Part shown: positions 5,001 through 28,387 of the stretch, piece after piece
Numbering within the stretch: position 1 is the stretch's first letter
How the letters are laid out: each line of letters opens with the position of its first letter
Source: Trichoplax adhaerens
Taxonomy: Eukaryota; Animalia; Placozoa
DNA: 64,000 nt
Assembly: GCF_000150275.1 (NCBI RefSeq)
Contig: NW_002060966.1
Coordinates: 502,650 to 566,649, forward strand
Reading direction: 5' to 3'
Notes under the pieces: generated by a model
What the model saw: only the letters and a program-made list of their open reading frames with translations
Database searches by the model: none
Told to the model about the DNA's origin: nothing
Translations under genes and position numbers: made by a program

Positions 5001-5315
5001 AATACTGGTGGTGAATATAATACACATTAGTGCATAGTAGTGATTATAGTATTTATCACCAAGAAACAATTTAGAGTGCAGCTTCCCTCAACGAGGTCTT
5101 AAATTTCAACTATATCTTTATATAAAATACACTAATCTAATGATTTTTAATTTTACGCAAATTTTATTTTCATTCTAAGTTTTGCGCAAGTTTTGACTAC
5201 GCCGTTATTATTTCATTATAAGAATCGTATTGAATCTTTGATTTGAAATTTTTCATTTTCTAAATAAGATTCGAATGAGGGCAGACCCTAACTCAGGATA
5301 CGCTTCGTACTTAAA

Positions 5316-6160
5316 GTGTACACAGGTAAGGTATCCTGTAGTGTAGAAACAGGCCTTGGTTCGAGAGTCGTGAAGGATTTAACTCGGGACTTGAAGGAGA
5401 GAAATTTTCATTTTTACATGGATAACTTCTTCACGAGTACCGAGTTATTTCTGGAGCGACCATCTAAGGGGGTATATTGCTGCGGAACTGCCAGGCAAAA
5501 CCGTAAAGGTTGGCCTCGAGAATTGCGTGGTAATAGAATCGTGAAGAAGCGAGGTGATAGTAAAAGTTTACAGTGCGGTACACTAGCAGCCTCAATTTGG
5601 TATGATAATAAACAAGTTCGTTCCTTGTTTATTACATGCACGAATCCATAAGCGTCAACGATAAAACTTAAACGCAAATCTGGTGATTCAATTGAGGTCG
5701 CTAGTCCATCAGTTGTACCTCATTATGTAAAGTTTATGGGAGGTGTGGGATAGGACTGATCAACTCAGAGCTGCCTATCCTACCAGGAGAAAGTCCAGAA
5801 AGTGATGGAAGTACCTTTTCTGGTTTTTATTAGATCAATCGATTGTAAATACATTCGTCTGCTTGTTGCAATCTGCTGATCACTGAAGGACAACGAGATC
5901 AGGGAAACACCGAAGGCGAGGACCGAAGCAGTTTCGAACGAAACTAGTGAAGCTACTAATTTCGACTTTCCTAGGGAGTCGAAAGCGTCTTTTTGATTCA
6001 AATAGGTTTGAAGACAATGATATACACTTGGTAGTGCCATCGAAGAAACCTCGTAGATGTCATTGCGGCGCGAAGAAGTTCAAATAAAGAAAGCAAACAA
6101 AATTGGAATGCGACTCGTGCAAGGTAAACTAGGATGAACTCTTCAACGTAACATAACATA
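5316..6160 (+). mobile_element. piggyBac-family transposase pseudogene (DDE_Tnp_1_7 remnant with stops and frameshifts)
   Basis: ORF 5316-5651 carries FYMDNFFTS...GTARQNRKGWP, diagnostic of piggyBac transposases. The YVKFMGGV(D) motif follows at about 5730-5760. A C-terminal CxxC...TxxxCxxC zinc-finger remnant (KPRRCHCGAKKFK*RKQTKLECDSCKV) lies at about 5990-6100. The frame is interrupted by stops, so it is not an intact transposase. No clear terminal inverted repeats were found. Confidence 0.6.
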
Positions 6161-9100
6161 TATATAAGCGATTAATAAATCGTCATCTATTTATCTCTTC
6201 ATCAAATTAGATTGGCTTGTGTGCTGAATGCTTCAAGCCATACCATGAAGAACTGAAGAGGATGCGAATGACTTTAGCTAAAGGCTGTAGCCACTGGGAT
6301 AGTACTAGTTTAATTTAATTTGTGTTAATTGATAATGCCCAGCTACCAAGCTCCTGTTATTGCGTTGCTTAGGTTTTAGGTTATATAAATTTTAGCTGGT
6401 ACTGTTTTTAGTTATAAATTGTGTATATTCAAGTTTCGTTATTGTTTTGAAATTTCTGGCGACAGCCACTGTGCTTCTGTAGTAATTAACGATGAATGTA
6501 GCTTATATAGTTTCCCTAGATAATGCTATTTAAAAATTTACGCTCGCATTGCCTTTTGTGTTAGTAGCTAATATGCTCCTGATAGAAATTATATACGATT
6601 GCCTTTGAGCCAGCTTCAGCTGCTTCCTCATTCCTTGTTATAATTCAGATGTAATAAATTTAAATCTTTACGTATTTCTAACTTGCAGTATGATTGTGAT
6701 ATTTGGGGGATATGCTTAAAAGCGCTGCAGAATAACATAAGCTTAGCTTTATTGATACGAAACTAACTATGCATCGTTTCAAACCTAATCAATCTCTAGG
6801 TTTAAACATTATCAATAGATCAGTTTATTACATTGCAAGTATTATAACATGAAGCTCTTGGTCTCTACATGAGTGACAAGTACAGCAAAGTGAAGGAATG
6901 AGACTAAGTAAACCTGAACAAAAGTTTTGTGTCCATTACGATTTTTTAAATAATATTGAAGATTGCAATAAGCTAAAATGATCTTAACATTTCTTCTATT
7001 ACTTCGCTTTATGCTCGTTGTAGCTTAAAATGTTTCCTGAATCAAGAGTAACATATTTTCTTGAATCATAGGCTTGTATTTTAATTTTTGATTCGATAGT
7101 TACTAACCCTGCATAAATATTAGCTTTGTTCGTTCGATAGATTGTTTATTTAAAACTAGTTAGTGTAACCTCCCAGGGAATTGTTTTTCTATACGAGAAG
7201 ACCTAACGTGTTGCTCACGTATATCTATGTAGTTTCTAAACTTCTTGAAATAATTGTTAGTGAGGATCCTGAAAGGATCCCTACTCTCGCAAGTACACTA
7301 CTTGTAAACTTTTCTATAAGTTCTATAGGGTAGTCCATAGCAATTCCTACTAACGTATAATAATATTGCTAATTTATTCAACAATAAGGGCGATATGTTA
7401 CCGTCGCCAGTGCATTATCAAACATAACTTATAGTCAAAACTTAATTATGATTTCTTCCAATTTGAACTTTTAATACTTATTGGTTAAGGTACCCAAAAA
7501 AATTTACGACTGTGCTCTCCTCTACGAATGGAACTTTATTGCTGAACTAATTTCCAACTAAAAACGATTACATCAAATGAAATTTTACAGAAATAGTATA
7601 GATACCTTACCAATAGCTCTCTACTTTTTGAATGGCGTAATCTTCGCCGAGCAAATGGCTTATAAGGACATTGTTTAAACGTAAGAGATATATGATAAAG
7701 TCAATCCATTAGAGCGGCTGCACGAAATAAAGGGTTAATTACTAAATATTCATTCTAAACTTTTATAGGAAAATGAATACGATAATTAAGAACTGATACC
7801 TCTATTTACATACGTTACTTTACGTAGGCTACTAGAAAGCTGAATTATTTGAAACTTGCATTTTCTAAACTTAAAAAGCTGCCGTGTAAATTGATTCGAT
7901 GTTTGCCTGTAGGATGATCAAATGGAGTATCAATACGAGAACGAGCTCATTTATAAGTTTTATTTGAATTAAACTTGTCGACTAGACTGGTCGAATTTGC
8001 TTTACGATGCACAATTCTATCATTGAAACCAGCAAATCTACCGATAAATAATCCCTAGTTTACACTCAAGGACATAAATTTGTGGTAGTCAGCTTGAAAT
8101 GCCCCCAATATATAAATTTATTAATCGATATTTAGTTGCTTTATCAAAGGAAAATATGTTATTTTAGTAGAAACCTTCTCGCGACATGAATTAAATACCG
8201 CTAATCCAATGATGAAGAAGAAGGTATTAATGCATAGAAGTTATTTAGTGTGACCGTGCGCCAGCAAAACACTGGAAAGATATATAAAGGGTCACGGCCC
8301 AAACACATAGAGAGTTTTTTACAGTTGATCTAGTTAGTGATCTGAGCTGATAAATAATAAAGTAACTCTAAACGCTATCGAATAGTCTCTCACTGAGATT
8401 AAGAAAGTTAGTCTTAGTCTGTACTATTCATCAAGAGTTAGTTTGAAGAATAGTCGGTGACAGTAAGTAGGTTAGTAGTTGCTAGCCTTGATAGTACAAG
8501 TGTCGCAGAGGAGATTTGTGACACATGGTTACATTAGCCAAGAAAGCAGTAAACGCCTGGCTAGAATATTGGAACAAGAAGCGAAAACTTTTGTGAATCT
8601 GGGTAGGTATCAAGATATTTTCACAAGTACAGTAAGTGTAAATTTACAAGATTAGGGGCTACATGAAGAAATTAGGAAATATGTTGGAGATAAATATTAC
8701 AAATTCCGCTAATTTGCCTCCCTGAAAGTATTTTAAAATTAAAAAGAAATAAAGTACGTCAATAGTCATGCTAAATTCACTATTATTTTACTATAGACCA
8801 CAAAAGATGGGTAAATAGATAATAAAATGAGAAAATTGGATCAAGATAGCAGGAATACTTTGAGTAGCCCTTTTATGGCCGCAAAATATATATACTGCCC
8901 TGATTTTTGCTTTAGTTAAGAACTATGGGTTTGACATATTTATACTTCATAATCTTAACGTAAAGTATACTTAACTAGATGTAACCGATCTCTAAATATC
9001 AATAGAGCTTGAAGGCAAATTTATATGCTCATATGCTTGTAGTAAATTATAATTTCCTATCTTTCCATTGCAACGAATTTTTAATCGAAAATTTGTAGCA

Positions 9101-9900
9101 TTACTCACGCAGGAATATTTTACATAAAATATTTTAGTTTTAACTAATATCGAAACATCATAACTACATTTGATAGAGTAAATTTTATATAAACATTTTA
9201 ATTAAAAAGTGATCTAAAGATTAGAATACTGCCGAAATCAGCACGTTACTTGGAATTTACGCTATTGAAGGTACTGGAGGTTTTTCAATTAATTATTTAT
9301 TATAAAATGGAACTGTTGCTAATATATAATCAAAGAAAATTCCACAAGAGTTGTTAGAGATCATTAAAAAGAACTGATTAGTTATCCGACGAAGAATTTT
9401 ATCATCCATTGCAAAATGAAAGTTGCGCTTTAGGTTGCAACTAAACTATAAAAAATTATTAGAACATTTTTTTAATTCATATTATTTCTTGTATAGAGCT
9501 AAACTTTATAAGAATAAAGTGGCATCTAGCAGATTTATTCAAAATTGATGTACTATTTTGATTATTAACGTAAAGTAACACTATAATTATTTTATCCGCT
9601 CCATTAGTGATATGTCGGATTTTTGCCTAGCTTTTTATCTTGATTGATACGAATATACTTCTTCATCGATGGAGTTATATATTCTAAAATATTTCATTGG
9701 AAGTGATGCCAATCGGTAATCCTGCAGTGTGCCGTCTTAAAATATCTGCCATCTATAAATACTTTATTGAGCATGCAGAATACGTCATTTTGTCGTTACC
9801 TAATTCAGCAAGAGTATTTTTAATACATATTACTATCAACTTTTGCTGAAATCATTACAACTTAGTATATAAGCGATTGCATAGCAGCTATCAATATTTT

Positions 9901-9965
9901 GGTAATTTAGTAAATTAGTTGGACAGTTAGTTAGTAGGTTAGTTAGTTAGTTGGTTAGTTAGTTG
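9901..9965. repeat. (GTTA/AGTT)n-type microsatellite
   Basis: agttagttagtaggttagttagttagttggttagttagtt, read directly from the sequence. Confidence 0.7.
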
Positions 9966-10164
9966 AATAATCAATTGGTTGCTTGTTCATAAAGTGAGAG
10001 GACACTTTTGTAAGGATTTCAGAAATTAAGATTTGTAAGCTTGAAACTAGCTGATGAAGTATTTTTTAGAGAATTGATCGGCGAACTATAGCTGAGGAAG
10101 TAATTTATCGACACAGTAGAAAATTTTAAAGTAAGAAGAATGAGATTTTTTCGATTTTGTTGTC

Positions 10165-10500
10165 ACGAAACAGCTTTGCAACAAGATAACGTAATGTATG
10201 ATTTATAAGTCAGTTCCTTGAACCACGTATCAAGCAACGATATCACCACTGTCATGAATACTTTACTCAACTAGCAAACTATACAAAGACTTAGACGCCT
10301 CATATTTTACGTTAAACACTTAGTTTAAGAATTAACTTTATTACCCGATTTACTGCAATTATACACTCTTCCTCAAGAGTTTATGAATCTTAGTTTGTAC
10401 GATTAACTTTGGAATAATTCACTGAATTAGATATTAATTTTAGCTACTGCTCCCTAATACAGACAACAGTATTTACGAATAAAGACATCTGATGACTAAC
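10165..10500. repeat. dispersed roughly 340 bp repeat, copy 1 (partner at 11945-12290)
   Basis: cagctttgcaacaagat(a/g)acgtaatg...gacttagacgcctcatattttacgttaaacac... and ttagctactgctccctaatacagacaacagtatttacgaa... recur at 11945-12290 at about 75-80% identity. Confidence 0.5.
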
Positions 10501-11944
10501 TATTAATTTCATTTTATGTTTATAACATTATTACATTAATATTTGCATACTAACAGATCCAATTTGTAGTGGTAAGTATATTTTATACGTATAAAATAGT
10601 TTACTACTACATCACCCAGACAGACTGTCAGAATTGTTGCTGAAACTACAAATTCAATTGGTTGTATCCCTGTTACGATGAAATTTTCTAAATTTCATCA
10701 TTCATTAGATTTTACACTTTTTATTTCGTCAAAATTCATCCAAAATTTGGTTAGTAAAAGTCATTTTTAATTTCCTATAGCATTTCGCATTGCATTAGTA
10801 TATAACTTACTTGAGCCTGTGTTGAAATAGCAGTTTTTAAATATTTTAAAGTTTTAAAAACTTTGGCATATTATTCTGATCTTTAGCTCCTAATAGCAAG
10901 GTTAAGCTGATTTGGATGGAAATAAGTCGGAATTTACTAAGTTATATTAATAAATAATACATATTTCTCTTATGGATGTACTGTTTGTTGAATTAAATAT
11001 TCACTCCACGTCCTATTAATTCAGTCAGAGTTTAAGAAATTATTTTACTAACCACAAGCACAACATTACTTACAGTTAAAGTAGAGAAATAAATTGCTTT
11101 GCTAGAGCTATAAATGCATCAAAAAGACAATTCTAATTGAAAGCAAGATAGAATGGTGATTTATCAGGTCGATGAGAGAAAAATGCAGTTACTTTTATTC
11201 TCTTCTTCTATCACAATTTCGGTCCTCATAGGCACGAATTCCCCATACAGTTGTTGATCAGCAATAAACCTTCAAGTGTCCGTTATGAGACGATGGATTG
11301 ATGAAATATAAATCTGACTTTGGACAATTTTCTAAATAATAACTGGTACGGTGGAAGGCTTATTTTAGGTTTAATCAAATGAATAAACTAATTATTTGTA
11401 CGTAGCATATTCATGAATTAAATAATTCAGGATTTTATAATTCCTGAAATTATTACAATTAATTAAATTAGCCTCTTATACTGTGAGGTTTATGATACGT
11501 TGAAAGAATACAATTTTTAAAGGGTAATTTATGATTTTAGTCACAGTCAAATAAATACCAAATTATAAAATTGGCATGAAATAGTATTGAGTTATCCTAA
11601 TAAAACTAACAACTAATCACACAACTTTACATAAATACTTCCTTAGGATTCCCTTTCAATTTGAATAATCTACTGTAGCAATCTTATTTTAACCAGATAT
11701 CGTTTTATCAGTATAGCTAATGTATACTATATTATAGAAACTCACTACAACTATTATGGTGATATAGTTAGAAAGTGTTCAATATACAAAGTCAAAAAAA
11801 ATATAGATAAGCAACACTAATAGATTATCTTCGAATAATATCAATACTGTTTACATCATATACATTTACTAGATAATAGCTACTTGATATCCAATATGAG
11901 GTACAGGTATTCAAACTTTTATGCGTGCACAGGTAAGGTAGTGT

Positions 11945-12290
11945 TATAAAACAGCTTTGCAACAAGATGACGTAATGCACGATCAATCAGTCGATTCCCT
12001 GAACCACATATCAGGGAGCAGTATCTACTCTTTCAAGAACTCTTTTTTTATACTAGTAGACTATAAAAAGACTTCTACGCCTCGTATCTTACGTTAAACA
12101 CTACTCATAAGAACTCACTTTATTATGCGATTTATCGCATTTATCGGCTCTTTTACAATAGCAAAGACATCCTAGTTAGTAATATTAACGTTGAAAACTG
12201 ATAATGAATCAAAGGCTAATTTTATCTACTGCTACCTAATGAAGACAATGGTATTTACGAACATAGACATCGAATGACTAATACAAAATT
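11945..12290. repeat. dispersed roughly 340 bp repeat, copy 2
   Basis: Homologous to 10165-10500. The two copies are about 1.78 kb apart. Confidence 0.5.
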
Positions 12291-15066
12291 GTCAGATTAC
12301 AATATGTCCGATCCTGGAACATTTCTGCGATAATCTACAATCTACCATAAGTAAATTATAATTACAGTGATTTGAATTGTAAGAAGATTATTCTCGATTC
12401 TCTAATTAAACAATTAACTTTAGTAGGCTGTATAATCACCATAAAAGCAAGTGCTACATTTAAATGTCTTATATCTAAATTAGAACTCTTCATATAAGTT
12501 TAAATCAACAAAATTATCCTAACATAGATGTTTGTACTATAATCTCGATTTTACAGTGTATAACATTACTACATGTTACAGTGTTATATACTGTAACAGG
12601 TAGTAATTTATTAAGACCGCACTTAGCTCTATGCATCGATAAATCTTCTGGTTACTTATTAATTAATCGATTTGTAAGGTATCATACCTAGTATCGATTA
12701 ATTAATTACACATTGTATTTGGTATGAAATATATTATCACCAACTTTAATCCGATATAAATCATAAAATTATTCATAAGTATATATCAAAGATTTGAATG
12801 AAAATTTTGACCTAGATTAACTTTTCTTAATCATTCCTGTCACAGGCTTACCACTTTTTCACAATTAAATTCATATTACAAAATATAGTTACAATTAAAA
12901 AGTAAATAAAATAGAGTTGGTTAACACCATAGAGAATTACTATTATAAATTTAGAGAATTTCACGAGAAAATAGTTGAGTCTTGACTGAAAAATTAGTTA
13001 GATATACTGTACAATTTACAATGATAAGCAATTACTAAGTAGTTTCTCAATAAAGAGAATCATAAACTAGTAAATATAGCATAAAGAATCTCTATAGCTA
13101 AATCGTCATGAATGTTTTCCAATTATAAATGAACTTTAATTATAATTATTAGAATATACTGATAGCAAACGCATAAGGAGAAATATCTAAATAATTAGAA
13201 ATAATGGGTGTAAAATTTGTACTAAGCAGACATTAGCTATGAAGCATGTAATCAAGAATTGACGGATGCTATAGTGCTTCATAAGCTATACGATTATACT
13301 AACTTTTACTTAAATCTCCGGAAGTAAAGTTACCCCAATAAAATAGTTTTCCCTATAAATTACATCGATCAATTAAATAATTATAAATCTATCAGGAGCA
13401 ACAACAATTAAATTACGGTAATAAACTATTACAATATATGTAGAGAGCATAACACCTGAAGATTTTGTTTAAGCTATGAAAAAATATTAAGCGAAGCAGT
13501 ACAAACTTCACTCAAAACTATTATTATCTATGACAATGTTCGATACATAAATTATCGAACATTTATTTTGTTTCGATAATTTGACAAGCTTAATAATAAG
13601 ATATCTGCTAAAGTTAGAATGAAACTTTGTACAACAGAGAGCTTATTTCATCAACACAATATTCTACGGAAATCATAACAAATACTTTCATCTGTCCGTC
13701 TTATTTCTTATTCCGATCTGTGTCGTAAGAATGCAAATAGTATCTAGGACATTGACATAATATTTATAATTACAAAGCTATATGGTATAGTAAACAGTTG
13801 AGAGTTTTATATTGGGAGGGTTTATGGCTTTTTAGCTATTGTCAGCAGTTTAATTTAATCCATTACCAAATGAGATAGTCAATTATAATGTCACACATAG
13901 CATAATAGGTCAATTATAATTGTGCCTGTAGGCAAATTGAGTACGCATTATAGATCAATTGACAAAACGATTTGGTCATAGTCATCTAAAAAAGAATTTA
14001 TTGTTATTCTGATATACTTATATTTCAGTAGCTGTGAAGCGTTTCTGTATCATTATGATGCAACATGTTTCTCACATTCTTTAGTTATATTATATTATGC
14101 CAAAAATAAAATAGGAAACCGATTAGAAATGGTTATCGAAGAGGCCATAGATAAGATCTATTAATTTGAATGAAATAAGTTCTTTTTAAATCTGCTATAC
14201 TATGCAGCGCTCATGCTGTGGTTTGTAATCCAATACTAGCTTTTATATTACTCAGCTAAGAATGAAGAAACATTTTACTGCCCTATTTGTATAAGTAATT
14301 TGACCTTAATTTATTGCAATCAACCATGTCGTACTGAGCATAAAAGATATTGGCAGGAAATACTTTAGATTGCCGTTTCTAAAAGCATTATACGCGAAAA
14401 TTTCTGTTCGAGACACTTGTTGATATGACTACGTAATAACAGTTTACCCGGTAACTGCAAAATATTTTGATAATTAGGCCATGGTGTATATACATAATCT
14501 CTCATGACCTCTCCAGCCCAAAAGGGCGCTAAAGAGAACGATCTAGATCACCATAGTAACAGATGTAGGCATTTCTATTGCATTTTATTTTTTACGATCA
14601 TTTTATTCTTATAAAATCAAACTGGTAGTAGACTTTTCTTTGGTAGCAATTTGAAATAGTACCGGAATCGTGCCATATTTGTTATGGATTTTACGATAGC
14701 TGATGATTGTTGATAATAAAAGAGCGAATCAAGAAATTAATTGGTTCAGAATATTGACAGTCATGCTTTTATCACCATTTCTTAATCACCAATTGTGATT
14801 TAAGCTTTTTTTGATCGATTAAGTCACATGGTTAATGACGCAAAGCACTGCCTAAGTAAATAATTCCGATGTTAATTCGAAGTCGTACTGACAACGATAT
14901 TCTCCTACTTAATTAAGAATTTAAGTTTGAAATCATAGCAGTTCGTAAACTTCTCATGTATCTGTAAAAACTAAGAGTAACATTCGAAAATTAAAAGGAT
15001 ATCCAACTCACAGGTTTTAAAAAAGTTCATCAACTTCATCAATCAAAAAGTAAGAAGCAACTTACG

Positions 15067-17712
15067 ATGGGTTCTGGTAGCAGTCTACAATCTAGAACGG
15101 TAGACTATAACGCAACGGCAAGAGCAATGATAGCAAAGGGTAAACGACTTCTAGATAAAGGATTATATCAAGAATCGCTTCAAGAATATCAAGATGCTTT
15201 GCAAGAGATGGATACCATTAATTCTACAAATCCTAATAGATCAAGTAACAAATTGGATAACCCCATGCTAGATATTTATCATGGCATGGCGATAGCTCAT
15301 GAGAAACAAAGCGAATGGACAGATGCAGAATCAGTGTATTATAAAATGATTCTATTGCAAGTCCAATTAACCGGAGAGAAGACCGTTCAAGTTGCTGATT
15401 TATATCGCCAAATGGGAAAATTATATTCAAAATTAAGCCAATTCAAAAAAGCTTTAATCATGCTTGAAAAATCCCTTCAAATTCGATTAGAATTATTTGG
15501 GATTGAAAATTTAAAAGTAACGGAAGCTTACGATGACCTCGCGTTGTATTATTGCCGAATGAATCGATTTCATGATGCCCAAAACAATTATGAAAAATCA
15601 TATAATATCCGTTTAAGGGAATTAGGCCAAAATGATATCGAAATCGTCAAATCATATAATAATATAGCAGATGTTCATATGCAGCAATGCCATTATAATG
15701 AGGCTTTGTCCTTCTATCAAAAATCGCTCAATCTTTGTAGACGAATTTATGGCGATAAACATCGTGATGTCGCTCAATCCTATCAACACATAGGTGATGT
15801 TGCTGTTAAACAGTTGCGATATGAAGAAGCGGCGGTCATTTATCAGACATGTTTAAATATGACTTTGGATTTATTTGGCAAAAAGCATGAAGATATTGCT
15901 CTTATATATATTAAAATGGCTGATATGCATATTCAGCAATCGGAATATCACGAAGCCATGAGTTTGTGTAAGAAAGTGCAAAAAATGTATCAGCAAATGG
16001 ATGAAAAAGAAAATCCAAATTCTACAGCACTAACGTTAAAAATAGCTAAAGTCTATCATTTACAGAGAAAATATGATTCTGCTTTAGGATTACTGCGGAG
16101 TCTATTGACAAAATTAACTCAGATATATGGGGATAGGCACGTGGATATCGCTGCTACTATGGAAGCTATATCAGAAGCAGTTTATGAACTTTTTGAATAT
16201 GAAACAGCACAAGACACTTTTGCTAAGACTTTACGTATGCGGTTAGCATTAACTGGCGAAAATAATGTCGATGTTGCGAGGATATATTTTCGCTTAGGTG
16301 ATATTAACTATGCCCGAGGTAATATTCCTGAGAGTATCAAATCTTATCTTCGATCTCTAAAAATTCGTTTAATCGTCTTCGGAGATAGCCATCCATCTGT
16401 TGCTGAAGCCGGAGATAGTATCGCGTTTATTTACATGATTTTTCGTAAGCATCATGAAGCTTTGGATTTATTCGAAAAATCGCTCAAGATCCGCTTACAT
16501 GTGAATGGCGGAATGAGTCCTAATACGGCTGCATCTTATAAAAATGTTGCTGTTATTTACTCCAAAGTTGGAAGACTGGAAGATGCCCTAGAAATGCTTC
16601 AAAAATCTCTTGATATTCGCTTGCATCTAACTGATGGCAAAAATAAAGATGTTGCTGTGTTATACGAAGAAATTGCAACAATCCATGCATTACAATCTAA
16701 ATATGAAGAAGCAATTACCGCGCTAGAGACATCATTAGAGATTCTAATACCCTTAGTGACGGAGGAACACCGGGATGTTGCCAATATTTATCTTCGTATC
16801 GGGGAAATATATAAAGCCCAAAAATTGTATAACAGGGCAGAGTTTTACTATCATAAGTCATTAACAAAGTTAATAGCAGCTATCGGGGATAGCAACTTAG
16901 AGGTATCTGGTCGTTATGAGGAATTAGCTTACGTACAATACTTGAACGAGGATTATGATCAAGCAGAAGTTTTATATGCGAAAGCTTTGGACATTCGTTA
17001 TACTGATCTGCGCCAAATAGACGAAAAAGTTGCAGAGTTGTTCCAGATACTGGGAACTATATACATGAAATTAGAAAATTATAACGACGCTCTTATGGTT
17101 TTAAATAAAGCTGTCGATGTTAGGACTCAGCTTTCAGCTGATCGCAACAGTGATTCTTTTGCCAATTTGTATCAAAATCTAGCTGCAGTTCATACTAGAC
17201 AATCAATGCAATATAATGCACAGCCTCTATTACTTAAAGCTTTAGCAATTCGAATTAAATTACACGGAGATAACAGCATTAATGTTGCTAATACATATGA
17301 GGCTATGGCTCATGATTATCAGCAACGCCAGCGATATCAAGAAGCTCTTACCATGTATCAGAAGGCCTTAAAAATTGCAGATGATCAATTAGGACCTACT
17401 CATATATTTGTTGCTCAATTATATGATTTCATCGGAGATGCCTACAAAGACTTGCATGATAACAAAAATGCAAGAACCATGTATCAGAAATCATTACAAA
17501 TTCAGGCTGATGTATTGAAATTAGAGAATCAAGACGTTTTAGACTTGTACAGTAAGTTAACTGATCTCATTCAGCAGCAAGGAGATTCTGAAGACGCTGC
17601 TTTACTGTTAAAGCAGGCTAAACTTTTGCACCAGAAATTACCAACCTTAACTACAAATAATATTTCACTTAGTAAATTAAAATACATTTTCTGGGAAGGC
17701 AATCGGTCATAA
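15067..17712 (+). CDS. Intronless 881-aa TPR-repeat protein (kinesin-light-chain/NPHP3-type TPR_12/TPR_10 repeats, about 19 units) with an N-terminal MGSGSS myristoylation-like motif
   Basis: A single 2,646 nt ORF with a 42-residue periodicity of A/Y/L-rich repeats (for example ...YEEALxxYQKSLxIRLxxxGxxHxDVAxSYxNIAxVY...). The start MGSGSSLQS has Gly2 and Ser6. No other domain is apparent. Confidence 0.85.
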   Translation: MGSGSSLQSRTVDYNATARAMIAKGKRLLDKGLYQESLQEYQDALQEMDTINSTNPNRSSNKLDNPMLDIYHGMAIAHEKQSEWTDAESVYYKMILLQVQLTGEKTVQVADLYRQMGKLYSKLSQFKKALIMLEKSLQIRLELFGIENLKVTEAYDDLALYYCRMNRFHDAQNNYEKSYNIRLRELGQNDIEIVKSYNNIADVHMQQCHYNEALSFYQKSLNLCRRIYGDKHRDVAQSYQHIGDVAVKQLRYEEAAVIYQTCLNMTLDLFGKKHEDIALIYIKMADMHIQQSEYHEAMSLCKKVQKMYQQMDEKENPNSTALTLKIAKVYHLQRKYDSALGLLRSLLTKLTQIYGDRHVDIAATMEAISEAVYELFEYETAQDTFAKTLRMRLALTGENNVDVARIYFRLGDINYARGNIPESIKSYLRSLKIRLIVFGDSHPSVAEAGDSIAFIYMIFRKHHEALDLFEKSLKIRLHVNGGMSPNTAASYKNVAVIYSKVGRLEDALEMLQKSLDIRLHLTDGKNKDVAVLYEEIATIHALQSKYEEAITALETSLEILIPLVTEEHRDVANIYLRIGEIYKAQKLYNRAEFYYHKSLTKLIAAIGDSNLEVSGRYEELAYVQYLNEDYDQAEVLYAKALDIRYTDLRQIDEKVAELFQILGTIYMKLENYNDALMVLNKAVDVRTQLSADRNSDSFANLYQNLAAVHTRQSMQYNAQPLLLKALAIRIKLHGDNSINVANTYEAMAHDYQQRQRYQEALTMYQKALKIADDQLGPTHIFVAQLYDFIGDAYKDLHDNKNARTMYQKSLQIQADVLKLENQDVLDLYSKLTDLIQQQGDSEDAALLLKQAKLLHQKLPTLTTNNISLSKLKYIFWEGNRS

Positions 17713-18420
17713 CTTTAGCCATTAATTAAATCTTTACAGGTTACTTGTGCATTATTTGTGGCTTATCTTTGGATTTGAAGTAATAATTATATAATTGATC
17801 TAGTTTCGTCTTTAAATACATAAATAGATATGAGAGCTTTGATTTTCCTGTGATTTTCAAAATATTCATTACTAGCCAAGTAGCCTTAATATCAGGATAG
17901 TCAGAAACTAATTTAGTAGCATCACATTGATGAAGCATCGCATTGGAATTAAATGTTTGGTGTAAACGAATGATAAATCATAATATCAATTTTCGAACAG
18001 ATTGGCCACATTTTATAGGGATTAAAATTGTATAACGGGAAATACTTAGCTACAATTTTTATCATATGGTGAACACCTTTAATCACTATTGAAATTGTAG
18101 AAAGAAGACTACGAAACTGCAAGTTCGAAAAATTTTTGTTTAATTGAAATGCCAACTGGACATCTAAGTGAAACATTACAAAAATATATAGTAAATGTAT
18201 ATGATTTTGTATTATTTTTGTCAGGACAGATTGAATTTGAATCAACTACTCGAAAAGTCCAAGACTTTTTACTATAGTTTATAATTCTCTAGAAATTAGT
18301 TACTAAGCCAAAGCACTAGAATTTATTACCTATATCTGTTATAGAAGTAATTTAGAACGCGATGGATATCTGATTGGCTCTACAGGAGTTAAACATAAAT
18401 TGTGTGTGATCTCTAACTGT

Positions 18421-18436
18421 ATATATATATATATAT
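18421..18436. repeat. (TA)n microsatellite
   Basis: tatatatatatatata. Confidence 0.6.
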
Positions 18437-19099
18437 GCTGCAACATTCGCGTTAAATATAAACTTTACTACTTTTTTGCGGTAATATTTAAATTTACCCA
18501 AATAGTATTTTAACAGGATTAAAAAATTTGTCTTGTTATCACGGTCAAGACTTTGTCATGAAATGTATATACTGTCAATTATATCTCGAAGTTAATACTG
18601 TGTACGCTGTGTAGCCATTGTTAACCAGTATACTTTCGTTGATGAATAATTATTATCCTGCAGAAGTAATTTATTAACTTTGACGACGTCTAAGAAAAGT
18701 CTCCTTAGAGGCATTACCCATAAATTTTGATCATTTGATTAGACAGCTTATCCAAGCCTGCCTATTTTATCTTTACCTTAAGTTATGCTATAAATTAAGC
18801 GCAAGAGGTTCATAAAATACATACTGTTTTGTCGTTAGTTTAGACTATAACTCATTCGTTTTAATAAAGTCTTTCATATAATTCAAGCCGTTAGTAGTTT
18901 TGTAAGATGTAGAAAACATTTAGCAATGACTTTAAGCGATTCAAAACTTTATTCTCAAAGATTCAGACAAGCAAAGTTTGATCAATCAATCGGTGAAGCG
19001 ATTTAGTAAGTGTAAAGTAGAATTATAACTATAATTTTTTATTAGTGCAGGGCTAAATTCGTAGCTATAACACCCGCCTACTACGCTAGATGAAAAGTA

Positions 19100-19800
19100 T
19101 GGCATCCAGCTTCAGATATTTATATCCCTCCTCTTGTAAAATAATTGATAGACTCTTTTACTTGGAGTGGAGCTTTTGATAGACATGTTATGTATTCAAT
19201 TATTATGCAGCGTCTGTTTGACTGTAAAAGAATAATTTATAGTTTTGATTTTACTGTTCGTTAGTTATTAGAGTTTCATATAGCAGTAAGTTATTAAACG
19301 TTCAATATTGCCTTATTATAGCAATAAATCTTATTAAAATGTACATATGATCTGAATCATGATGGTTCTACTCCTTCATACTTTCTAAATTTTTTAAGAA
19401 CAGATTCGAATCGTTGTTGTTCTCGAACTTTAGCAATCTATCGCATTGAAATGTTTTATACAGATTTATATCCCTGCTCCTGTAAAACAATTGATAGACT
19501 CTTTTAATTAGAATAGAATTCTTGTAGAAACATTATGCAACCACTTTAATTAACTATCCCTATTAGATTATAAGAGAGTAATTCATAAATTGAGTTTCCC
19601 TGTACAGTAGTGTTCATTACGGCTTGCGGTCAATTTGTATGTAACTATGGATATTCATACTCGTAGTAAAGTTTCATTTAACAGTACCAAATTTTTATTA
19701 GAATGCCGTATGATCTGAATTGTAGTAATACTACACCTTTATACTTTCTAATTATTTTAAGAACAAATTCAAATCCTTGATGTCATCAAACTTTAAATAG
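19100..19800. repeat. local tandem duplication, unit about 350 bp, two copies
   Basis: cagat(a)tttatatccctcctcttgtaaaa(t/c)aattgatagactctttta... at about 19110 recurs at about 19460. ...atgatctgaat...tactttctaa(a)ttttttaagaaca(g/a)attc(g/a)aatc... at about 19340 recurs at about 19700. Confidence 0.5.
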
Positions 19801-19937
19801 AATTACGAATAAATAAGTGGCTAAATACTATTTATTCCAAAATGGATCATATCACAGTATACGAATACTTATGTTCAAGAAGTATTAACGATCTACCAAA
19901 AGAGTAAATAATACTAAATAGAGAGCTTTATAAAGAT

Positions 19938-20073
19938 TCACTTCAATTTATTCGCTGTTAGAAATAACGTTGCATTGGGCGTTAGTCCAGATTCATATAA
20001 CGTTGCATCCATATCCGTATATAGCTTCTTGGGAAAGGAAGAACGAATCTCAAACGGTGGTTCCGAAGACGAC
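19938..20073 (-). CDS. UBXN11: UBXN11-like terminal exon (SSSEPPFEIRSSFPKKLYTDMDATLYESGLTPNATLFLTANKLK*)
   Basis: Acceptor tgttataaag, TGA stop at plus 19938-19940. Matches the UBX C-terminal consensus (human FEIFSTFPPTLYQDDTLTLQAAGLVPKAALLL). Confidence 0.65.
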
Positions 20074-23000
20074 CTTTATAACAAAAGGTAAATTTAATTT
20101 CTTCTAGCCTTCAAATTTGATAGATGATACAGCTGTATTTTTACACTTTACCTTTGGTTACTTATATATTTATATAGATCCTGAATCGTATCATTAAATT
20201 TTAATTTAACGATATATACCTGTATTGTGAAATTAAATAGGTAAAGTTTAACAGCCTTCAGATACATATCCCTTAATCTAGTGTTCGCAAACACCAGAAT
20301 GCCCTACATTATACAAAGTAACGTAGTAATTAATGATTACTTGGCTATTGTCTTCATTCTTAATTCGCAACGTTGTAATATCATGTGGAGTTGCAGGCCT
20401 CTCAGATTCATCAGCGTGTCTAATGATAGAAAACAGCACGAAACCAACGGGAATTTGGTAAATTAAATCGATTAAAAACTTTTAAATGAATGGGTAGTTT
20501 CCTAGTATGCTTAAAATTATATTTATTTACAATCCGGTTGCCTATTAAGCAGATACAATTCGTAAACTAAAAGTATATGCGTAGATATAGCTATCAATAT
20601 GGAACAAGCCTTTATCATAAAATACTGCATTAATTAAATTATGTGATTTTATTACTATATTCTTAATTTAGCCGTCTGATCTTACTTTACTTTCATGTCT
20701 TTCACTTGTTTAGTTTCTACGATCACAACTTTACTTTTCGTAGAATCGCTTGTCTGATAAATTTTAGTTTAAATTTAAAATTTTTAGTAGCCTCTCAATA
20801 ATACATAAGAAGAGGTGCAGTGCTAATAATGGAACTGTGAGTCTTAGCAAAATCTTTGTCAAATCTCGTACAATAGTTTATATATATATTGATTTGATAT
20901 GTAAATAGTTTACCTGAATATTTTCCTTAATATCTGATCGAATATTAACAATTTTTCCATCGCGTATGACAGATTCAGGCAACTTCGATAAAAATTTATC
21001 TACAGTAACTGGTTTTCCTAATCAAGATATTTTCAAGAACTTTGTCTCAATTCAACCCTTGGCTATACATATCTAAGCTATTAAATGATATACCAGCTAA
21101 TTTGCTAGTGACTTTAACTTTATCCCGCCGCGACACCATGTTGCCCGGTGGATTCGACTTTCCGCCCAAAATATTTCCAAGACCAGGAAAATTATCTAAT
21201 CGCTGATTTCGATATTCTGTTTCACGATGATCGTAAATCTATAATCGATAAGAGGATAGAATTCTCAGCAAATGTCTTAATGAAGCATAATCAAGTGGGC
21301 TTGAAATTCAGTTCTAAAGATTTTAATATTTCATTCAGTTTAGGAATAACCTGGAATGGTACGCCGTCTGGATGTCTAGATTGTAATTCTGATGGAAAAT
21401 AACCATCACAAATATCGCGAATAAATTGCTGTATAAGCAATACGAGAATATGCGTACAGAAATGTATTTCAAATCAGTATTTTTAACATAAAGGTTCAAA
21501 GTTTAATCTATAAAACTTCTGTTATGAAATCAGACGCTATTAATTACGTAGATGGTTAGGTAATCGCCTTTATAGGCATACTGATAAAGGCAACATTTGC
21601 TAGTAAATCAGTTTTACCTGTGCATAGGGTTCATCATAATACCTAAATGGACCTTCGTATAAAGCGAAACCATTGCTATAAATCGAGATAGGAATTGCGT
21701 CTGGAATCTGAAATGGTAAGTATTTAAGTACATCAGTTACCAGAGTTTACACATCTAGAAACCAGAGACGAAGGTCATATCCTTTTTAGATATGAATGTT
21801 GAATATTAACTCGTTTATAAACCTGAAAAACAGCTCTTCCTGTTGTCTTGACAATCTTAGGATTATCCGCATTTGCCAATAAATTTAGTTCCTACAAGCA
21901 GTTAATGACAAATGTTAGAGGATTAACTAATACAGAAACCAACACAATCGAATAGTGGCCTTATAGCGTGCATTTTTCTCAGATAAACAGGCATTCGGGC
22001 AACTATTTTGTGCTTATTGGTGGTAGCAAACATTAACATGTGAGAATAAAATTTCTGTCTAACATTTCTAAAAAAAGTCATGCTTTGTTTGATACTGTAT
22101 GAAAACCTTGTAGAAAGATTTTGATAATCACAAATTTCTCTACGTAGTACAATATTAACTTACCTTAATATTTTCAATCACAAGATTAAAATCAATTGCC
22201 GTTGCTGTTGCAAGTGATTGTTCTGATAAATATTAGAATGTAAATTAGATCAATTTCGATCATTCCTATTGCATGCAATAAGCTTATTGATAATGACTGA
22301 TTGATTTTGGGAGAATGATCAAACCTGGTTGCCACATAGTCGTCGATGCAGTATTTTGTTTCTCAGAATTATCTTGTGTACTACTGTCTTCGTCGTCTTC
22401 GCTTTCGTCATCTCCTATCCACACGAGGCCATAATCATTCAAAAATCGCTGCGTAATTTAGAGACAGATACAGAGTAAGAATTTTAGATGAACTTGTATG
22501 GTGTATTATAAAGTTAATACAAATTTGAGATTGTTAGATTTAAGCAATATCCATTCAAAGGCGTGAGAAAATCTTAACCTCCATTTCATGGACTTGTCTT
22601 TGTAATGTAACGCATTTTGCTTTTAGTTCTCTGTAAGATTCTTCGTCATCATTTCTAGCTAAAAGAGATGAATTTAAAAATATGAAATAATGAAAGCAGA
22701 AATGATTTGTGCCTAGTCTTTTACGGGATATTTGTATATAATAGCTAATTTATTATAGAAGATCAAACGAAAGTACATATATACTGATCAGTTTTCTAAG
22801 TATTTTAAGAACAAGTCATATGCAATGCGAATAGAGTTACGTAAGTATTGTAGTCCTATGAGATATCTTAATGATCGACATATTATTCATCTAAAGTCGA
22901 AAATTTTGATCAGTCTTTCGAAATTACAAGTTTATTATATAATAAAATAAGTATTATAACATCAGTGGCGAGGAGTCAAGTGAGCGTATATAAGTTTAGG

Positions 23001-26378: not shown

Positions 26379-26551
26379 TTAATCAAGCTAAATTGCTGTA
26401 TGGCAATAGTTGACATTAAAAAGATTTCAAGCTATAACATAAGTCAGCGTCACGGAATTGAAATCGGACATGAAATTTTAGCTAGTAATATCCGATTATT
26501 CTTTAATTTAAAAGGTTATTTCGTTGTATCATCATCTTCCTCATTGCCAAG

Positions 26552-26618
26552 ATGAATGGATTAATTGATGAAGCAAAAAAGAATCGTTTCTCAACCATTC
26601 CTGATCTTTCCACCAATG
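26552..26618 (+). CDS. CCDC81: CCDC81 exon 1 (MNGLIDEAKKNRFSTIPDLSTN)
   Basis: ATG at 26552, donor G|gtaagt. Human N-terminus is MLDTIARALQDLGRQVLPTLPSLS. Confidence 0.6.
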
Positions 26619-26794
26619 GTAAGTATAAGATCATAAAATGTGATGATGCTATGGTCGATTGCTTTAACACCAGAGAAAAACTGATCATAATAATCATAAG
26701 CATGTTTCAAATTGATACGGTGATCTATTGATAAGCTATACCCTGTACATTTGAACTTTAAGATTTGATAATTTGTTCTCTTTCATTTTATCAG

Positions 26795-26856
26795 ATGTCC
26801 TTGATATTTGGGACAATATTTCGAGATTTGTCGAACAGCAAATGCTGTTGCAAAAG
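26795..26856 (+). CDS. CCDC81: CCDC81 exon 2 (DVLDIWDNISRFVEQQMLLQK)
   Basis: Acceptor ttttatcag and donor AAG|gtgtgc. Human EEVSIIWGNVSEFVRRQLTLHKG. Confidence 0.7.
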
Positions 26857-26983
26857 GTGTGCTACGCTATATCACTTCATTTATTGACAAAGGATTAGTA
26901 ACTTTCAAAACTTGCTACATTAGCGGAAATAAATGTAAAAGGCTATTTGAATGTCATATTGACGGCATATTTATATTGATTAG

Positions 26984-27140
26984 GGTGTTTCCATACCTGG
27001 CTTGGGGACATTTACTTTCTCTCAAAAGAAACTCGATATGGGTGGCAATAAATATATTCTATTCCAACGTCCTATATTTACGATATCCGAAAAATTCGCC
27101 CAAAGCCACGGCATAGCCTTTACTAAAACTTATACCCCAG
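26984..27140 (+). CDS. CCDC81: CCDC81 exon 3 (GVSIPGLGTFTFSQKKLDMGGNKYILFQRPIFTISEKFAQSHGIAFTKTYTP)
   Basis: Acceptor ttgattag and donor CAG|gtagct. Human GVQIPAFGTFTFIRQKLEVGNNKFILIQRPVF...KVYTPG. Confidence 0.8.
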
Positions 27141-27868
27141 GTAGCTATAACATAGATATATGTACAATATCAAGATGATGTAAAGTGATTCAAATATGGC
27201 ATGTACAAGAACTCGCAGTAGCATTTCTAAAAATTGATAGAAATTAATTTAACTGCAATAAAGTCTATCAAGTAATCATAACAACCTAAACGGAGTGATT
27301 AGAGAACGATTGTACGATGATAATCAGGCGCCATTATCAATCAACAATACACTTTAGTGATTTTGTGTTGCAAATGATAGGGTGGAAAATATCGACGAAG
27401 TTAATGCTTTTCCCTGCTGTTGTACAAATTTTAATTAAATTAGTTCATTGCAGTGAATATATAATTCTTGTAGATCGATCATTATTTTTCTTTTAATCAT
27501 CGGTAACTTTTCGATTAACTATTTATTGAGTATTGTTGTATTAACATTTCCACAGTATAGCAGAAAAAGCACTCATTTCTATTTCTATTTACATATACAT
27601 ATATAAAATTTAAACGAGAAAATGTTGTACCGTAATTAAAATGAGTTAAGCTGCTAGTAAACTTTAATTTTCTTTAAACGAAATTGACAGCTTACTGCAA
27701 GCTTTGCGCCAATAAGTAATATTTAATGGAAAGTAAATTGTGATTATGCCAATGGGGTCTAACGGTAGTTGCAGTTAAGTTAGATTCAACTAGTCTTTCC
27801 AATGGTAGGTACATATTACTTCATAGCAAGGATGTTTCTGATCGGTTTTTACCTATTATAAAAAATAG

Positions 27869-28125: not shown

Positions 28126-28204
28126 GTAAGATATTTATAATAAAATAAGTTCAAAACATGTGACTGGTTCATGCTAATAACTAATCAACGTTATCCACAA
28201 ACAG

Positions 28205-28278
28205 AGACCTTTTACCGCTGATTCAGTCATTTCACCCACTAAACGCCCTGGAACTGGGAATACAGTTATTTTACCCAG
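28205..28278 (+). CDS. CCDC81: CCDC81 exon 5 (RPFTADSVISPTKRPGTGNTVILP)
   Basis: Acceptor ccacaaacag and donor AG|gtacta. Human RPGTVDSVLSS. Confidence 0.7.
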
Positions 28279-28387
28279 GTACTACTCAGAACATAAACAA
28301 ATCATTGGGATATAAATGGATATTTCATCAATTATGATACAAGCTGAAGTTAACCGTTTATTTCTTATTTCATTTGCTGTAAATTAG

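What the first reader, a model, noticed from the sequence alone, without database searches (positions are those of the whole stretch)
15067..17712. Intronless 881-aa all-TPR protein with an N-myristoylation-type start (MGSGSS)
It is a 2.6 kb single-exon gene in an otherwise intron-rich locus. It encodes about 19 kinesin-light-chain-type TPRs and nothing else, preceded by a Gly2/Ser6 motif that would target it to membranes. This TPR subtype is the sensor/scaffold part of NB-ARC/NACHT-TPR immune proteins in many invertebrates and bacteria. A domain-less, lipid-anchored version could be a lineage-specific expanded family or a decoy or adaptor. It lies in a gene-poor stretch about 13 kb downstream of the TIR-only gene.
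Basis: partly seen in the sequence, partly recalled or inferred. Interest (0 to 1): 0.5.

Follow-up and report, generated by a model that had tools for sequence, protein, structure and literature searches.

The report
Lipid-tagged all-TPR scaffold gene in Trichoplax
This is a real, intact, intron-free gene of the placozoan Trichoplax that encodes nothing but 20 kinesin-light-chain-type TPR repeats behind a start (MGSGSS) that fits the signal for attachment of a myristoyl lipid; it is a divergent member of a common repeat-protein family, already called as a gene in a sister genome, and is only mildly unusual.

Summary
Window 15067-17712 (+) is an 881-codon open frame, about 1e-27 by chance. It encodes 20 units of 42 residues in near-perfect register, and Pfam finds only TPR families. 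It starts with MGSGSS, and a stop lies 24 codons upstream.

The window is Trichoplax, 99.4-99.7% identical to Trichoplax sp. H2 contig NOWV01000181.1. H2 carries the same single-exon 881-aa gene call. The two copies differ by 6 synonymous and 3 non-synonymous changes and no indel (pN/pS 0.13, p=0.004), so the gene is maintained by selection.

I found no NTPase or other domain on the same strand in the 9 kb upstream or the 2.2 kb downstream. The nearest Trichoplax relatives (27-34% identity, named "Nephrocystin-3") are not NB-ARC/NACHT proteins. They are TPR-Roc-COR(-Death) proteins with the TPR array at the N-terminus, plus other TPR-only proteins.

Most likely it is an N-myristoylated TPR superhelix that acts as a membrane-tetherable scaffold. 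Its N-terminus also fits the UNC119 high-affinity cargo motif. Its first six residues are those of cystin, and residues 5-7 (SSL) match NPHP3. Ciliary delivery is therefore a testable but speculative idea. Verdict: ordinary member of a known kind, low-to-moderate interest.

The parts
15067..17712 (+). Complete single-exon coding sequence, 881 codons plus TAA stop
   Evidence: ORF list. Identical gene call (881 aa, 2646 bp, one exon) in Trichoplax sp. H2 locus L002 16640-19285. 9 nt differences from H2, 6 synonymous and 3 non-synonymous, no indel, pN/pS 0.13, p=0.0036. Host-like codon usage, r=0.95, GC3 0.288.
15067..15087 (+). Start codon in context ACGATGG, and codons for MGSGSSL: N-myristoylation-type motif (Gly2, Ser6, non-Pro7) with small residues at positions 3-5
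   Evidence: Sequence. MGxxxS rule (PMC6678300). UNC119 high-affinity 'USC' motif needs small or medium residues at positions 3-5 (PMC8246649). Cystin starts n-MGSGSS and NPHP3 starts n-MGTASSL (PMC4049891; PMC11240719). Residues 1-12 are disordered in the model. The modification itself was not tested.
15106..17670 (+). Array of 20 kinesin-light-chain-type TPR units (42-residue period), residues about 14-868; consensus Y..iAdiy..Q..Y.eAl.ly.KsL.Irl.l.Gd.n.dVA.l
   Evidence: Offset-42 self-similarity and register layout. Pfam TPR_12/TPR_10/TPR_NPHP3. KLC TPR is the best PDB sequence match. AlphaFold2 with alignment gives pLDDT 82.8, pTM 0.75 and 40 helices. Foldseek finds long TPR solenoids.
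14992..14994 (+). In-frame stop codon 24 codons upstream of the ATG; it limits any N-terminal extension without splicing
   Evidence: Translation of 14767-15120. The stop-to-stop segment begins at 14995.
6100..15066 (+). Upstream intergenic stretch with no detectable protein domain on the gene's strand
   Evidence: Pfam scan of all + strand open segments of 28 aa or more gave nothing. tblastn of 120 TPR homologues, including NB-ARC, NACHT-like, Roc-COR, Death, CHAT and ART carriers, gave nothing below E=0.06 outside the ORF. No gene is called in H2 between window 10185 and the ATG.
17713..19900 (+). Downstream spacer reaching the 3' end of the convergent UBXN11 gene; no Roc, COR, Death or other domain
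   Evidence: Pfam scan of + strand open segments. tblastn. UBXN11 on the minus strand at about 19.9-23.8 kb.

Best explanation
A genuine Trichoplax protein-coding gene, maintained by selection, made of one exon. Its product is an all-alpha TPR superhelix of 20 kinesin-light-chain-type repeats (about 2.5 superhelical turns) with a short flexible N-terminal tail.

Proposed mechanism:
1. Translation starts at the ATG at 15067, in a good context (A at -3, G at +4).
2. The initiator Met is removed and N-myristoyltransferase acylates Gly2 (inferred from MGSGSS).
3. There is no nearby cysteine (the first Cys is at residue 163) and only a weak basic patch. The single lipid would therefore give reversible membrane binding, or binding dependent on a lipid-binding carrier protein.
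4. The concave face of the TPR solenoid binds peptide segments of partner proteins, as in kinesin light chain. The protein would thus recruit or scaffold partners at a membrane.

By descent it is a divergent, enzyme-less member of the placozoan 'Nephrocystin-3-like' TPR group. Other members of that group are TPR-only or carry Roc-COR(-Death) after the N-terminal TPR array.

Shown: the gene, the repeat architecture, the fold, the absence of other domains and purifying selection. Inferred: myristoylation, membrane tethering and the scaffold role.
For: - Intact 881-codon ORF, far beyond chance.
- Same single-exon call in the evidence-based H2 annotation (annotation method in PMC6057997).
- pN/pS 0.13 with no indel, against 9 gap openings in the 24-kb locus alignment.
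- Host-like codon usage.
- Only TPR families in Pfam, and 20 in-register 42-residue units.
- KLC TPR as nearest solved sequence.
- Confident all-helical solenoid model with a disordered N-terminal 12 residues, and structural neighbours that are all TPR scaffolds.
- No other domain upstream or downstream.
- N-terminal motif fits the MGxxxS rule.
- Trichoplax relatives P0024, P0105 and P0228 are TPR-Roc-COR(-Death). P0262 and P0070 are TPR-only.
Against: - Myristoylation is predicted from seven residues only. About 2% of the TPR homologues collected fit the same pattern at their N-terminus (6 of 264), so chance is not negligible.
- None of the five Trichoplax relatives inspected starts with MG.
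- I could not examine expression data, so the 5' end and the use of this ATG rest on the H2 gene call and sequence context.
- No partner or localisation is known.
- Conservation was tested only against a 99.7% identical sister lineage.
- The C-terminal third of the model is of lower confidence.
Confidence: 0.6

Rival explanations
1. Ciliary cargo reading (a refinement of the main explanation). The myristoylated N-terminus is a high-affinity ligand of the lipid-binding carrier protein UNC119. It is released by ARL3-GTP in the cilium. The protein would then be a ciliary or periciliary TPR scaffold of the densely ciliated placozoan epithelium: an NPHP3-like protein without the NTPase.
For: - Positions 3-5 are Ser-Gly-Ser, meeting the published UNC119 'USC' requirement for small or medium residues (PMC8246649).
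- The first six residues equal those of cystin (MGSGSS), and 8 of the first 10 match human cystin MGSGSSRSSR.
- Residues 5-7 (SSL) match NPHP3, MGTASSL. Both are myristoylated ciliary proteins.
- NPHP3 also has KLC-type TPRs, and the query scores 180 bits on Pfam TPR_NPHP3.
Against: - The match is a short low-complexity string.
- Cystin and NPHP3 need further ciliary targeting elements (AxEGG; coiled coil 96-201). I did not look for an AxEGG motif here. The model shows TPR helix pairs from residue 14, not an NPHP3-type coiled coil.
- The presence of UNC119, ARL3 and ARL13B in Trichoplax was not tested here.
- The TPR_NPHP3 hit is fragmentary (7 stretches) and is shared by all KLC-type TPR proteins.
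Confidence: 0.15
2. Sensor-only or decoy/adaptor of a STAND-like or ROCO-like immune or death pathway. The TPR array is the ligand-binding module of the TPR-Roc-COR-Death proteins. It is expressed on its own to titrate ligands or to bridge them to signalling partners.
For: - Nearest Trichoplax relatives include TPR-Roc-COR and TPR-Roc-COR-Death proteins.
- Many distant homologues are NB-ARC-, CHAT-, caspase- or TIR-linked TPR proteins.
- A TIR-domain gene lies upstream on the same strand.
Against: - Identity to the ROCO paralogues is only 27-34% and is not higher than to unrelated bacterial TPR proteins.
- N-terminal 72-residue and C-terminal 62-residue searches show no specific kinship.
- The low pN/pS gives no sign of diversifying selection, though it rests on only 9 differences.
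- There is no clustering with other TPR, NLR or ROCO genes in 64 kb.
Confidence: 0.15
3. The ORF is one large exon of a bigger multi-domain gene (TIR-, NB-ARC- or Roc-COR-containing) whose other exons were missed.
For: - The upstream TIR exon ends at a strong splice donor (tgg|gtaaga), so that gene may continue 3'.
- An AG preceded by a weak pyrimidine run lies at 15012-15013, inside the 24 open codons before the ATG.
Against: - The H2 evidence-based annotation calls a stand-alone single-exon 881-aa gene, with no gene in the 4.9 kb upstream.
- There is no domain in any + strand open segment in the 9 kb upstream or the 2.2 kb downstream.
- tblastn found nothing.
- The ORF ends in a stop, followed by a convergent gene.
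- The ATG has a good initiation context.
Confidence: 0.05
4. Bacterial origin: contamination from, or recent horizontal transfer out of, a Trichoplax symbiont or other bacterium. This would explain the absence of introns and the many bacterial or metagenomic top hits.
For: - It is intronless.
- Of the top hits whose source names I looked up, most are from metagenome collections (JGI/IMG, ENA), and several hits begin with signal-peptide-like N-termini, as in bacterial proteins.
- Intracellular bacteria are rich in TPR proteins (PMC3641634).
Against: - The gene is embedded between intron-containing animal genes in two independent assemblies.
- Codon usage and GC3 are indistinguishable from the neighbours.
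- Identity to bacterial proteins (36% or less) is no higher than to Trichoplax paralogues (34%).
- No NCBIfam bacterial family reaches its cutoff.
- An ancient transfer cannot be excluded or shown, because TPR repeats converge on a consensus.
Confidence: 0.05

Closest known systems
Trichoplax 'Nephrocystin-3'-annotated TPR proteins: RDD36934.1 (P0228), RDD40856.1 (P0024), RDD45494.1 (P0105), RDD40857.1 (P0070), TRIADDRAFT_60705 (P0262)
   Same: Same organism and same KLC-type 42-residue TPR units. The TPR array starts within about 15-30 residues of the N-terminus. P0262 (1011 aa) and P0070 (533 aa) are likewise TPR-only.
   Different: Only 27-34% identical. Three of the five carry Roc-COR (one also Death) after the TPRs. 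None starts with Met-Gly.
Nephrocystin-3 (NPHP3)
   Same: N-terminal Gly2 myristoylation motif with small residues at positions 3-5 and the same Ser-Ser-Leu at 5-7 (MGTASSL against MGSGSSL). KLC-type TPRs, with Pfam TPR_NPHP3 at 180 bits.
   Different: NPHP3 has coiled coils and, from my own knowledge of the family rather than a test here, a central P-loop NTPase region before 8-11 C-terminal TPRs. Here the TPRs begin at residue 14, there are 20 of them, and no other domain is present. It is not an orthologue.
Kinesin light chain TPR domain
   Same: Closest solved structures by sequence (E 7e-17) and local fold (TM to target 0.62-0.75). 42-residue TPR period. The groove binds cargo peptides, which is the model for how this protein would bind partners.
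   Different: KLC has 6 TPRs preceded by a heptad-repeat region that binds kinesin heavy chain, and no lipid anchor. Here there are 20 TPRs, no coiled coil, and a myristoylation motif.
Rapsyn (43K receptor-associated protein of the synapse); comparison from established knowledge, not tested here
   Same: An N-myristoylated protein whose body is a TPR array and which scaffolds partners at a membrane. It is the best functional analogy.
   Different: Rapsyn has 7 TPRs followed by a coiled coil and a RING-H2 domain. No RING or other domain is present here.
Cystin (CYS1)
   Same: Identical first six residues MGSGSS, and 8 of the first 10 (MGSGSSRSSR against MGSGSSLQSR). Cystin is myristoylated at Gly2 and is ciliary.
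   Different: Cystin is a 145-aa disordered protein with an AxEGG ciliary motif and no TPRs. The resemblance is confined to the lipidation tag.

Membership tests
TPR superfamily, KLC-type (Pfam TPR_12 / TPR_10) | Tandem helix-turn-helix repeats with the TPR_12 signature and a 42-residue period | tested here: met
   TPR_12 at 359 bits against a cutoff of 30.1, in 14 stretches. Offset-42 self-similarity and 20 units in register. 40 helices in the model.
NLR / STAND (NB-ARC- or NACHT-TPR) | Central NB-ARC or NACHT P-loop NTPase domain in the same protein | tested here: not met
   No NTPase domain in the protein, nor in + strand open segments 9 kb upstream or 2.2 kb downstream. tblastn with NB-ARC- and NACHT-like-containing homologues was negative.
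ROCO proteins | Roc GTPase followed by a COR domain | tested here: not met
   Present in paralogues P0024, P0105 and P0228, but absent from this protein and its flanks.
Nephrocystin-3 orthologues | N-terminal myristoylation motif | tested here: met
   MGSGSSL against MGTASSL. This is a match of motif only.
Nephrocystin-3 orthologues | Coiled-coil region needed for basal-body targeting, and a central NTPase region before the TPRs | tested here: not met
   TPR helices start at residue 14, and no other Pfam domain is present.
Kinesin light chains | N-terminal heptad-repeat region that binds kinesin heavy chain, followed by 6 TPRs | tested here: not met
   Only the TPR part aligns, over 160-230 residues. 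The N-terminus is a 12-residue tail followed directly by TPRs.
N-myristoyltransferase substrates | Gly2, an uncharged non-bulky residue at 3, Ser/Thr/Ala/Gly/Cys/Asn at 6, and no Pro at 7 (PROSITE PS00008 / MGxxxS) | tested here: met
   G2 S3 G4 S5 S6 L7, by the rule cited in PMC6678300. The tail is predicted to be disordered.
N-myristoyltransferase substrates | Covalent myristate on Gly2 in vivo | not testable with these tools
   This needs metabolic labelling or mass spectrometry.
UNC119 high-affinity cargo (USC motif) | Myristoyl-Gly2 followed by small or medium residues at positions 3, 4 and 5 | tested here: met
   Ser-Gly-Ser at positions 3-5. The motif is defined in PMC8246649.
UNC119 high-affinity cargo (USC motif) | Nanomolar binding to UNC119 and release specific to ARL3; UNC119 and ARL3 present in the organism | not tested

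The most novel reading that the evidence does not exclude
A placozoan protein combines the lipid tag of vertebrate ciliary UNC119 cargo (cystin/NPHP3-type MGSGSS(L)) with a 20-repeat TPR solenoid and no enzymatic domain. It would be a ciliary-membrane scaffold delivered by an ancient UNC119-ARL3 shuttle. This would show that this lipid-tag code for ciliary targeting predates bilaterians, and that an 'NPHP3 without NTPase' design exists.
Probability: 0.12. Interest if true: 0.45.

Novelty: new member of a known kind. Interest (0 to 1): 0.25.

Why it matters
On its own it matters little. KLC-type TPR proteins are extremely common: 86,078 cluster representatives matched at E<=0.001. The gene is also already called in the Trichoplax sp. 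H2 annotation.

Three modest points of value remain:
- It corrects the expectation that such TPR arrays in Trichoplax belong to NB-ARC/NACHT receptors. The local relatives are ROCO-type or TPR-only.
- It gives a clean, short and testable candidate for N-myristoylation, and possibly for UNC119-dependent sorting, in an early-branching ciliated animal.
- It shows that the 'gene-poor' gap next to the gene is partly a lineage-specific 5.8-kb insertion.

Tried and rejected
- **Exact-sequence look-ups.** Look-ups of the 881-aa protein and of a 276-aa version of the GNAT found nothing. The window differs from H2 by three residues in the TPR protein.
- **'Unannotated gene' reading, withdrawn.** I first read the lack of any hit above 36% identity as meaning the gene is unannotated. 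This was wrong. The H2 locus carries the 881-aa call, but that protein is simply not in the searchable collection. Those searches therefore say nothing about annotation, or about orthologues in H1 or H2.
- **Single-sequence AlphaFold2.** The model was useless (pLDDT 39) and was replaced by the alignment-based model.
- **Searches with the termini alone.** The N-terminal 72 and C-terminal 62 residues, searched against all collected homologues, gave no specific relatives. A 'shared placozoan N-terminal cap' could therefore not be established, even though the full-length alignment to P0105 is collinear from residue 18-19.
- **NCBIfam.** All hits were far below the curated cutoffs.
- **DNA repeat search.** There are no recent tandem duplications inside the gene and no terminal repeats flanking it, so there is no sign of a mobile-element origin.
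- **Insertion ends.** No target-site duplication or inverted repeat was found at the ends of the 5.8-kb insertion.
- **Neighbouring locus tags.** A search for the presumed neighbouring locus tags in the immunity-gene supplement of PMC6321704 found no match.
- **Papers held.** Wright et al. 2011 (PMC3222901) is not held. No paper links Trichoplax with UNC119.
Full report
**1. Observation**

An in-frame stop at 14992-14994 lies 24 codons upstream. The window has about 31% G+C and a per-codon stop probability of 0.077. An open stretch of 905 codons is therefore expected about 3e-27 times in the whole window.

Pfam finds nothing but TPR families: TPR_12 at 1e-109 in 14 stretches, TPR_10, and TPR_NPHP3 at 180 bits. 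Self-comparison has a single sharp maximum at an offset of 42 residues. The sequence can be written as 20 consecutive 42-residue units with one 1-residue slip. The unit consensus is Y..iAdiy..Q..Y.eAl.ly.KsL.Irl.l.Gd.n.dVA.l.

The nearest solved structures by sequence are kinesin light chain TPR domains. At the DNA level the repeats are old and diverged, with no recent tandem duplication.

**2. Organism and annotation**

- The single-exon GNAT gene at 35.7 kb is 100% identical to TrispH2_009722 of Trichoplax sp. H2.
- Window 25.7-46.2 kb and window 10.2-34.4 kb align to H2 contig NOWV01000181.1 at 99.4-99.7%. Published H1/H2 genome identity is 99.1% (PMC6057997). The window is therefore Trichoplax, probably T. 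adhaerens H1.
- In the H2 record a gene is called at the orthologous place, with the same ATG and stop: one exon, 2646 bp, 881 residues.
- H2 gene models came from an evidence-based MAKER run with RNA-seq.

My earlier impression that the gene is unannotated was wrong. It rested on no hit above 36% identity in either large protein search. The H2 protein is simply not in the searchable collection.

**3. Is it a functional gene?**

- Window and H2 copies differ at 9 of 2646 positions, 6 synonymous and 3 non-synonymous (T85R, H288N, I353V), with no indel.
- With 544 synonymous and 2099 non-synonymous sites, pN/pS is 0.13. The excess of synonymous changes has binomial p=0.0036.
- The surrounding 24 kb shows 99 mismatches and 9 gap openings.
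- Codon usage correlates at r=0.95 with the neighbouring animal genes. GC3 is 0.288, within the neighbours' range.

So the gene is maintained and is compositionally native.

**4. Is it part of a larger gene?**

- Every + strand open segment of 28 aa or more between 6100 and 15066 was scanned against Pfam, with no hit. The same holds for the segments of 40 aa or more listed between 17713 and 20104.
- tblastn of 120 homologues found nothing outside the ORF below E=0.06. These homologues include carriers of NB-ARC, NACHT-like, Roc-COR, Death, CHAT, ART, TIR and kinase domains.
- There is no second TPR copy in the window.
- H2 has no gene call between window 10185 and the ATG.
- Downstream, the ORF is followed after 2.2 kb by the 3' end of a convergent UBXN11 gene.
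- The ATG sits in the context ACGATGG.
- A weak acceptor-like AG at 15012-15013 lies in the open 24 codons. The upstream TIR exon ends at a good donor. A spliced extension therefore cannot be formally excluded without transcript data, but nothing supports it.

**5. Relatives**

An exhaustive HMMER pass over 1.84 billion cluster representatives gives 86,078 matches at E<=0.001. None is above 36% identity. This is a huge, consensus-like repeat family.

The hits whose source names I looked up are largely metagenomic (JGI/IMG, ENA) TPR proteins, some of them giant; one is from the alga Mallomonas. Several hits begin with signal-peptide-like N-termini. No NCBIfam family reaches its cutoff.

The Trichoplax relatives (27-34% identity) are annotated 'Nephrocystin-3':

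| Protein | Length | Architecture |
|---|---|---|
| P0024 | 1404 aa | TPR-Roc-COR |
| P0228 | 1050 aa | TPR-Roc-COR |
| P0105 | 1247 aa | TPR-Roc-COR-Death |
| P0262 (TRIADDRAFT_60705) | 1011 aa | TPR only |
| P0070 | 533 aa | TPR only |

In all of them the TPR array starts near the N-terminus, and any enzymatic module follows it. The query aligns collinearly with P0105 from residue 19. The termini alone show no specific kinship.

By contrast, only 4 of the 42 NACHT/NB-ARC genes of Trichoplax sp. H2 have TPRs. Most are Apaf-1-like WD40 proteins (PMC6321704 text and supplement). The better comparison is the ROCO-type and TPR-only group.

**6. Structure**

Without an alignment, AlphaFold2 failed (pLDDT 39). 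With a 46-sequence alignment it gave pLDDT 82.8 and pTM 0.75. Confidence is above 90 for most of residues 70-600 and lower for the C-terminal third.

The model has 40 helices, that is 20 helix pairs, and a disordered tail at residues 1-12. Foldseek against the PDB returns only long TPR scaffolds: CTR9, the IFT-A subunit TTC21B, APPBP2, SKI3, the OGT TPR domain, APC/C subunits and KLC1. The protein is a continuous TPR superhelix with a free N-terminal tail.

**7. The N-terminus**

- MGSGSSL satisfies the MGxxxS / PS00008 rule for N-myristoyltransferase. The tail is predicted to be flexible.
- There is no cysteine before residue 163, so dual acylation is unlikely. A single myristate gives weak, reversible membrane binding.
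- Positions 3-5 (Ser-Gly-Ser) meet the published requirement for high-affinity UNC119 cargo, which is small or medium residues at positions 3, 4 and 5 (PMC8246649).
- The first six residues are those of cystin, n-MGSGSS. Human cystin is MGSGSSRSSR, an 8 of 10 match.
- Residues 5-7 (SSL) are those of NPHP3, Myr-GTASSLVSP. Both proteins are myristoylated and ciliary.

This is a short low-complexity match. Six of the 264 collected TPR homologues also fit PS00008 at their start, and none of the five Trichoplax relatives does. I therefore treat myristoylation as likely (about 0.6) and ciliary sorting as a speculative but cheap-to-test idea (about 0.12-0.15).

**8. Mechanism proposed**

1. Translation starts at 15067.
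2. The initiator Met is removed and Gly2 is myristoylated (inferred).
3. The TPR solenoid presents a long concave groove for peptide segments of partners. This is inferred from KLC and other TPR scaffolds.
4. The lipid gives reversible tethering to a membrane, or hand-over by a lipid-binding carrier protein.

Functionally the closest analogies are rapsyn (a myristoylated TPR scaffold) and the N-terminal tag plus TPR part of NPHP3. It is a member of neither family. It lacks the RING domain of rapsyn, and the coiled coil and NTPase of NPHP3.

Rival readings are listed with their tests: a decoy or adaptor of ROCO/NLR signalling, an exon of a larger gene, a bacterial origin. Contamination is excluded by the flanking animal genes in two assemblies. 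Recent transfer is made unlikely by the native codon usage.

**9. Context**

The 13-kb 'gene-poor' gap to the TIR exons is partly lineage-specific. Window 4371-10184 is absent from H2. That stretch includes a piggyBac-type transposase remnant at 5292-5648 (Pfam DDE_Tnp_1_7). In H2 the two genes are therefore about 7 kb apart. Nothing links them functionally.

**10. Verdict**

- Observation: confirmed.
- Novelty: new member of a known kind. It is a divergent, TPR-only, myristoylation-motif member of the placozoan KLC-type TPR group, and it is already present as a gene call in H2.
- Interest: 0.25. The only mildly surprising element is the cystin/NPHP3-like lipid tag on a pure TPR solenoid in an early-branching ciliated animal.

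Noticed in passing
window 4371-10184: A stretch of about 5.8 kb is present in the window but absent from Trichoplax sp. H2. The H2 sequence joins window 4370 directly to 10185. The stretch contains a piggyBac-type transposase remnant at 5292-5648 (Pfam DDE_Tnp_1_7, 2e-18). No target-site duplication or terminal inverted repeat was seen at the junctions.
   Followed up: partly
window 35680-36510 (+): An intronless GNAT acetyltransferase gene (Acetyltransf_18), 100% identical to TrispH2_009722. It has at least three T. adhaerens paralogues at 39-45% identity. Apart from a few unnamed Logan/ENA contigs at 47-49% identity, the remaining hits that carry names are bacterial, at 30-38% (Kiloniella, Streptomyces, Pseudoalteromonas). 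This pattern would fit an old bacterial acquisition followed by duplication.
   Followed up: partly
window 40125-41053: A block of tandemly repeated DNA just upstream of the CDK8-like kinase gene. Copies are 82-95% alike in the window-versus-H2 BLAST pieces, which are about 165-430 bp long. The overlapping alignments indicate a different copy number in the window and in H2.
   Followed up: no
window 1237-2054 (+): The TIR-domain gene (TIR_2, 1e-9) has a last visible exon that ends at a strong splice donor (tgg|gtaaga at 2054/2055). It may therefore have further 3' exons and not be 'TIR-only'. The locus tags I guessed for this neighbourhood (TrispH2_00971x and 00972x) do not appear in the innate-immunity gene lists of PMC6321704.
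   Followed up: partly
window 19900-23800 (-) and 26550-31150 (+): The immediate neighbours are UBXN11 (SEP+UBX, convergent with the TPR gene) and CCDC81 (two HU domains). UBXN11 homologues turn up in many animals, a green alga (Chlamydomonas eustigma) and other unicellular eukaryotes. CCDC81 is, from general knowledge, a centrosome- or cilium-associated protein. This is a coincidence worth remembering if the ciliary idea is tested, but it is not evidence.
   Followed up: no
window 10104-10190 and 11942-12000 (+): Two similar short open segments, ...CCHETALQQDNVMYDL... and ...CYKTALQQDDVMHDQ..., indicate a dispersed repeat. One copy abuts the right end of the 5.8-kb insertion.
   Followed up: no
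window 48200-61600 (+): A run of CUB-domain exons (for example 59338-59700, CUB 5e-23) belonging to one or more multi-CUB genes. It is unrelated to the finding.
   Followed up: no
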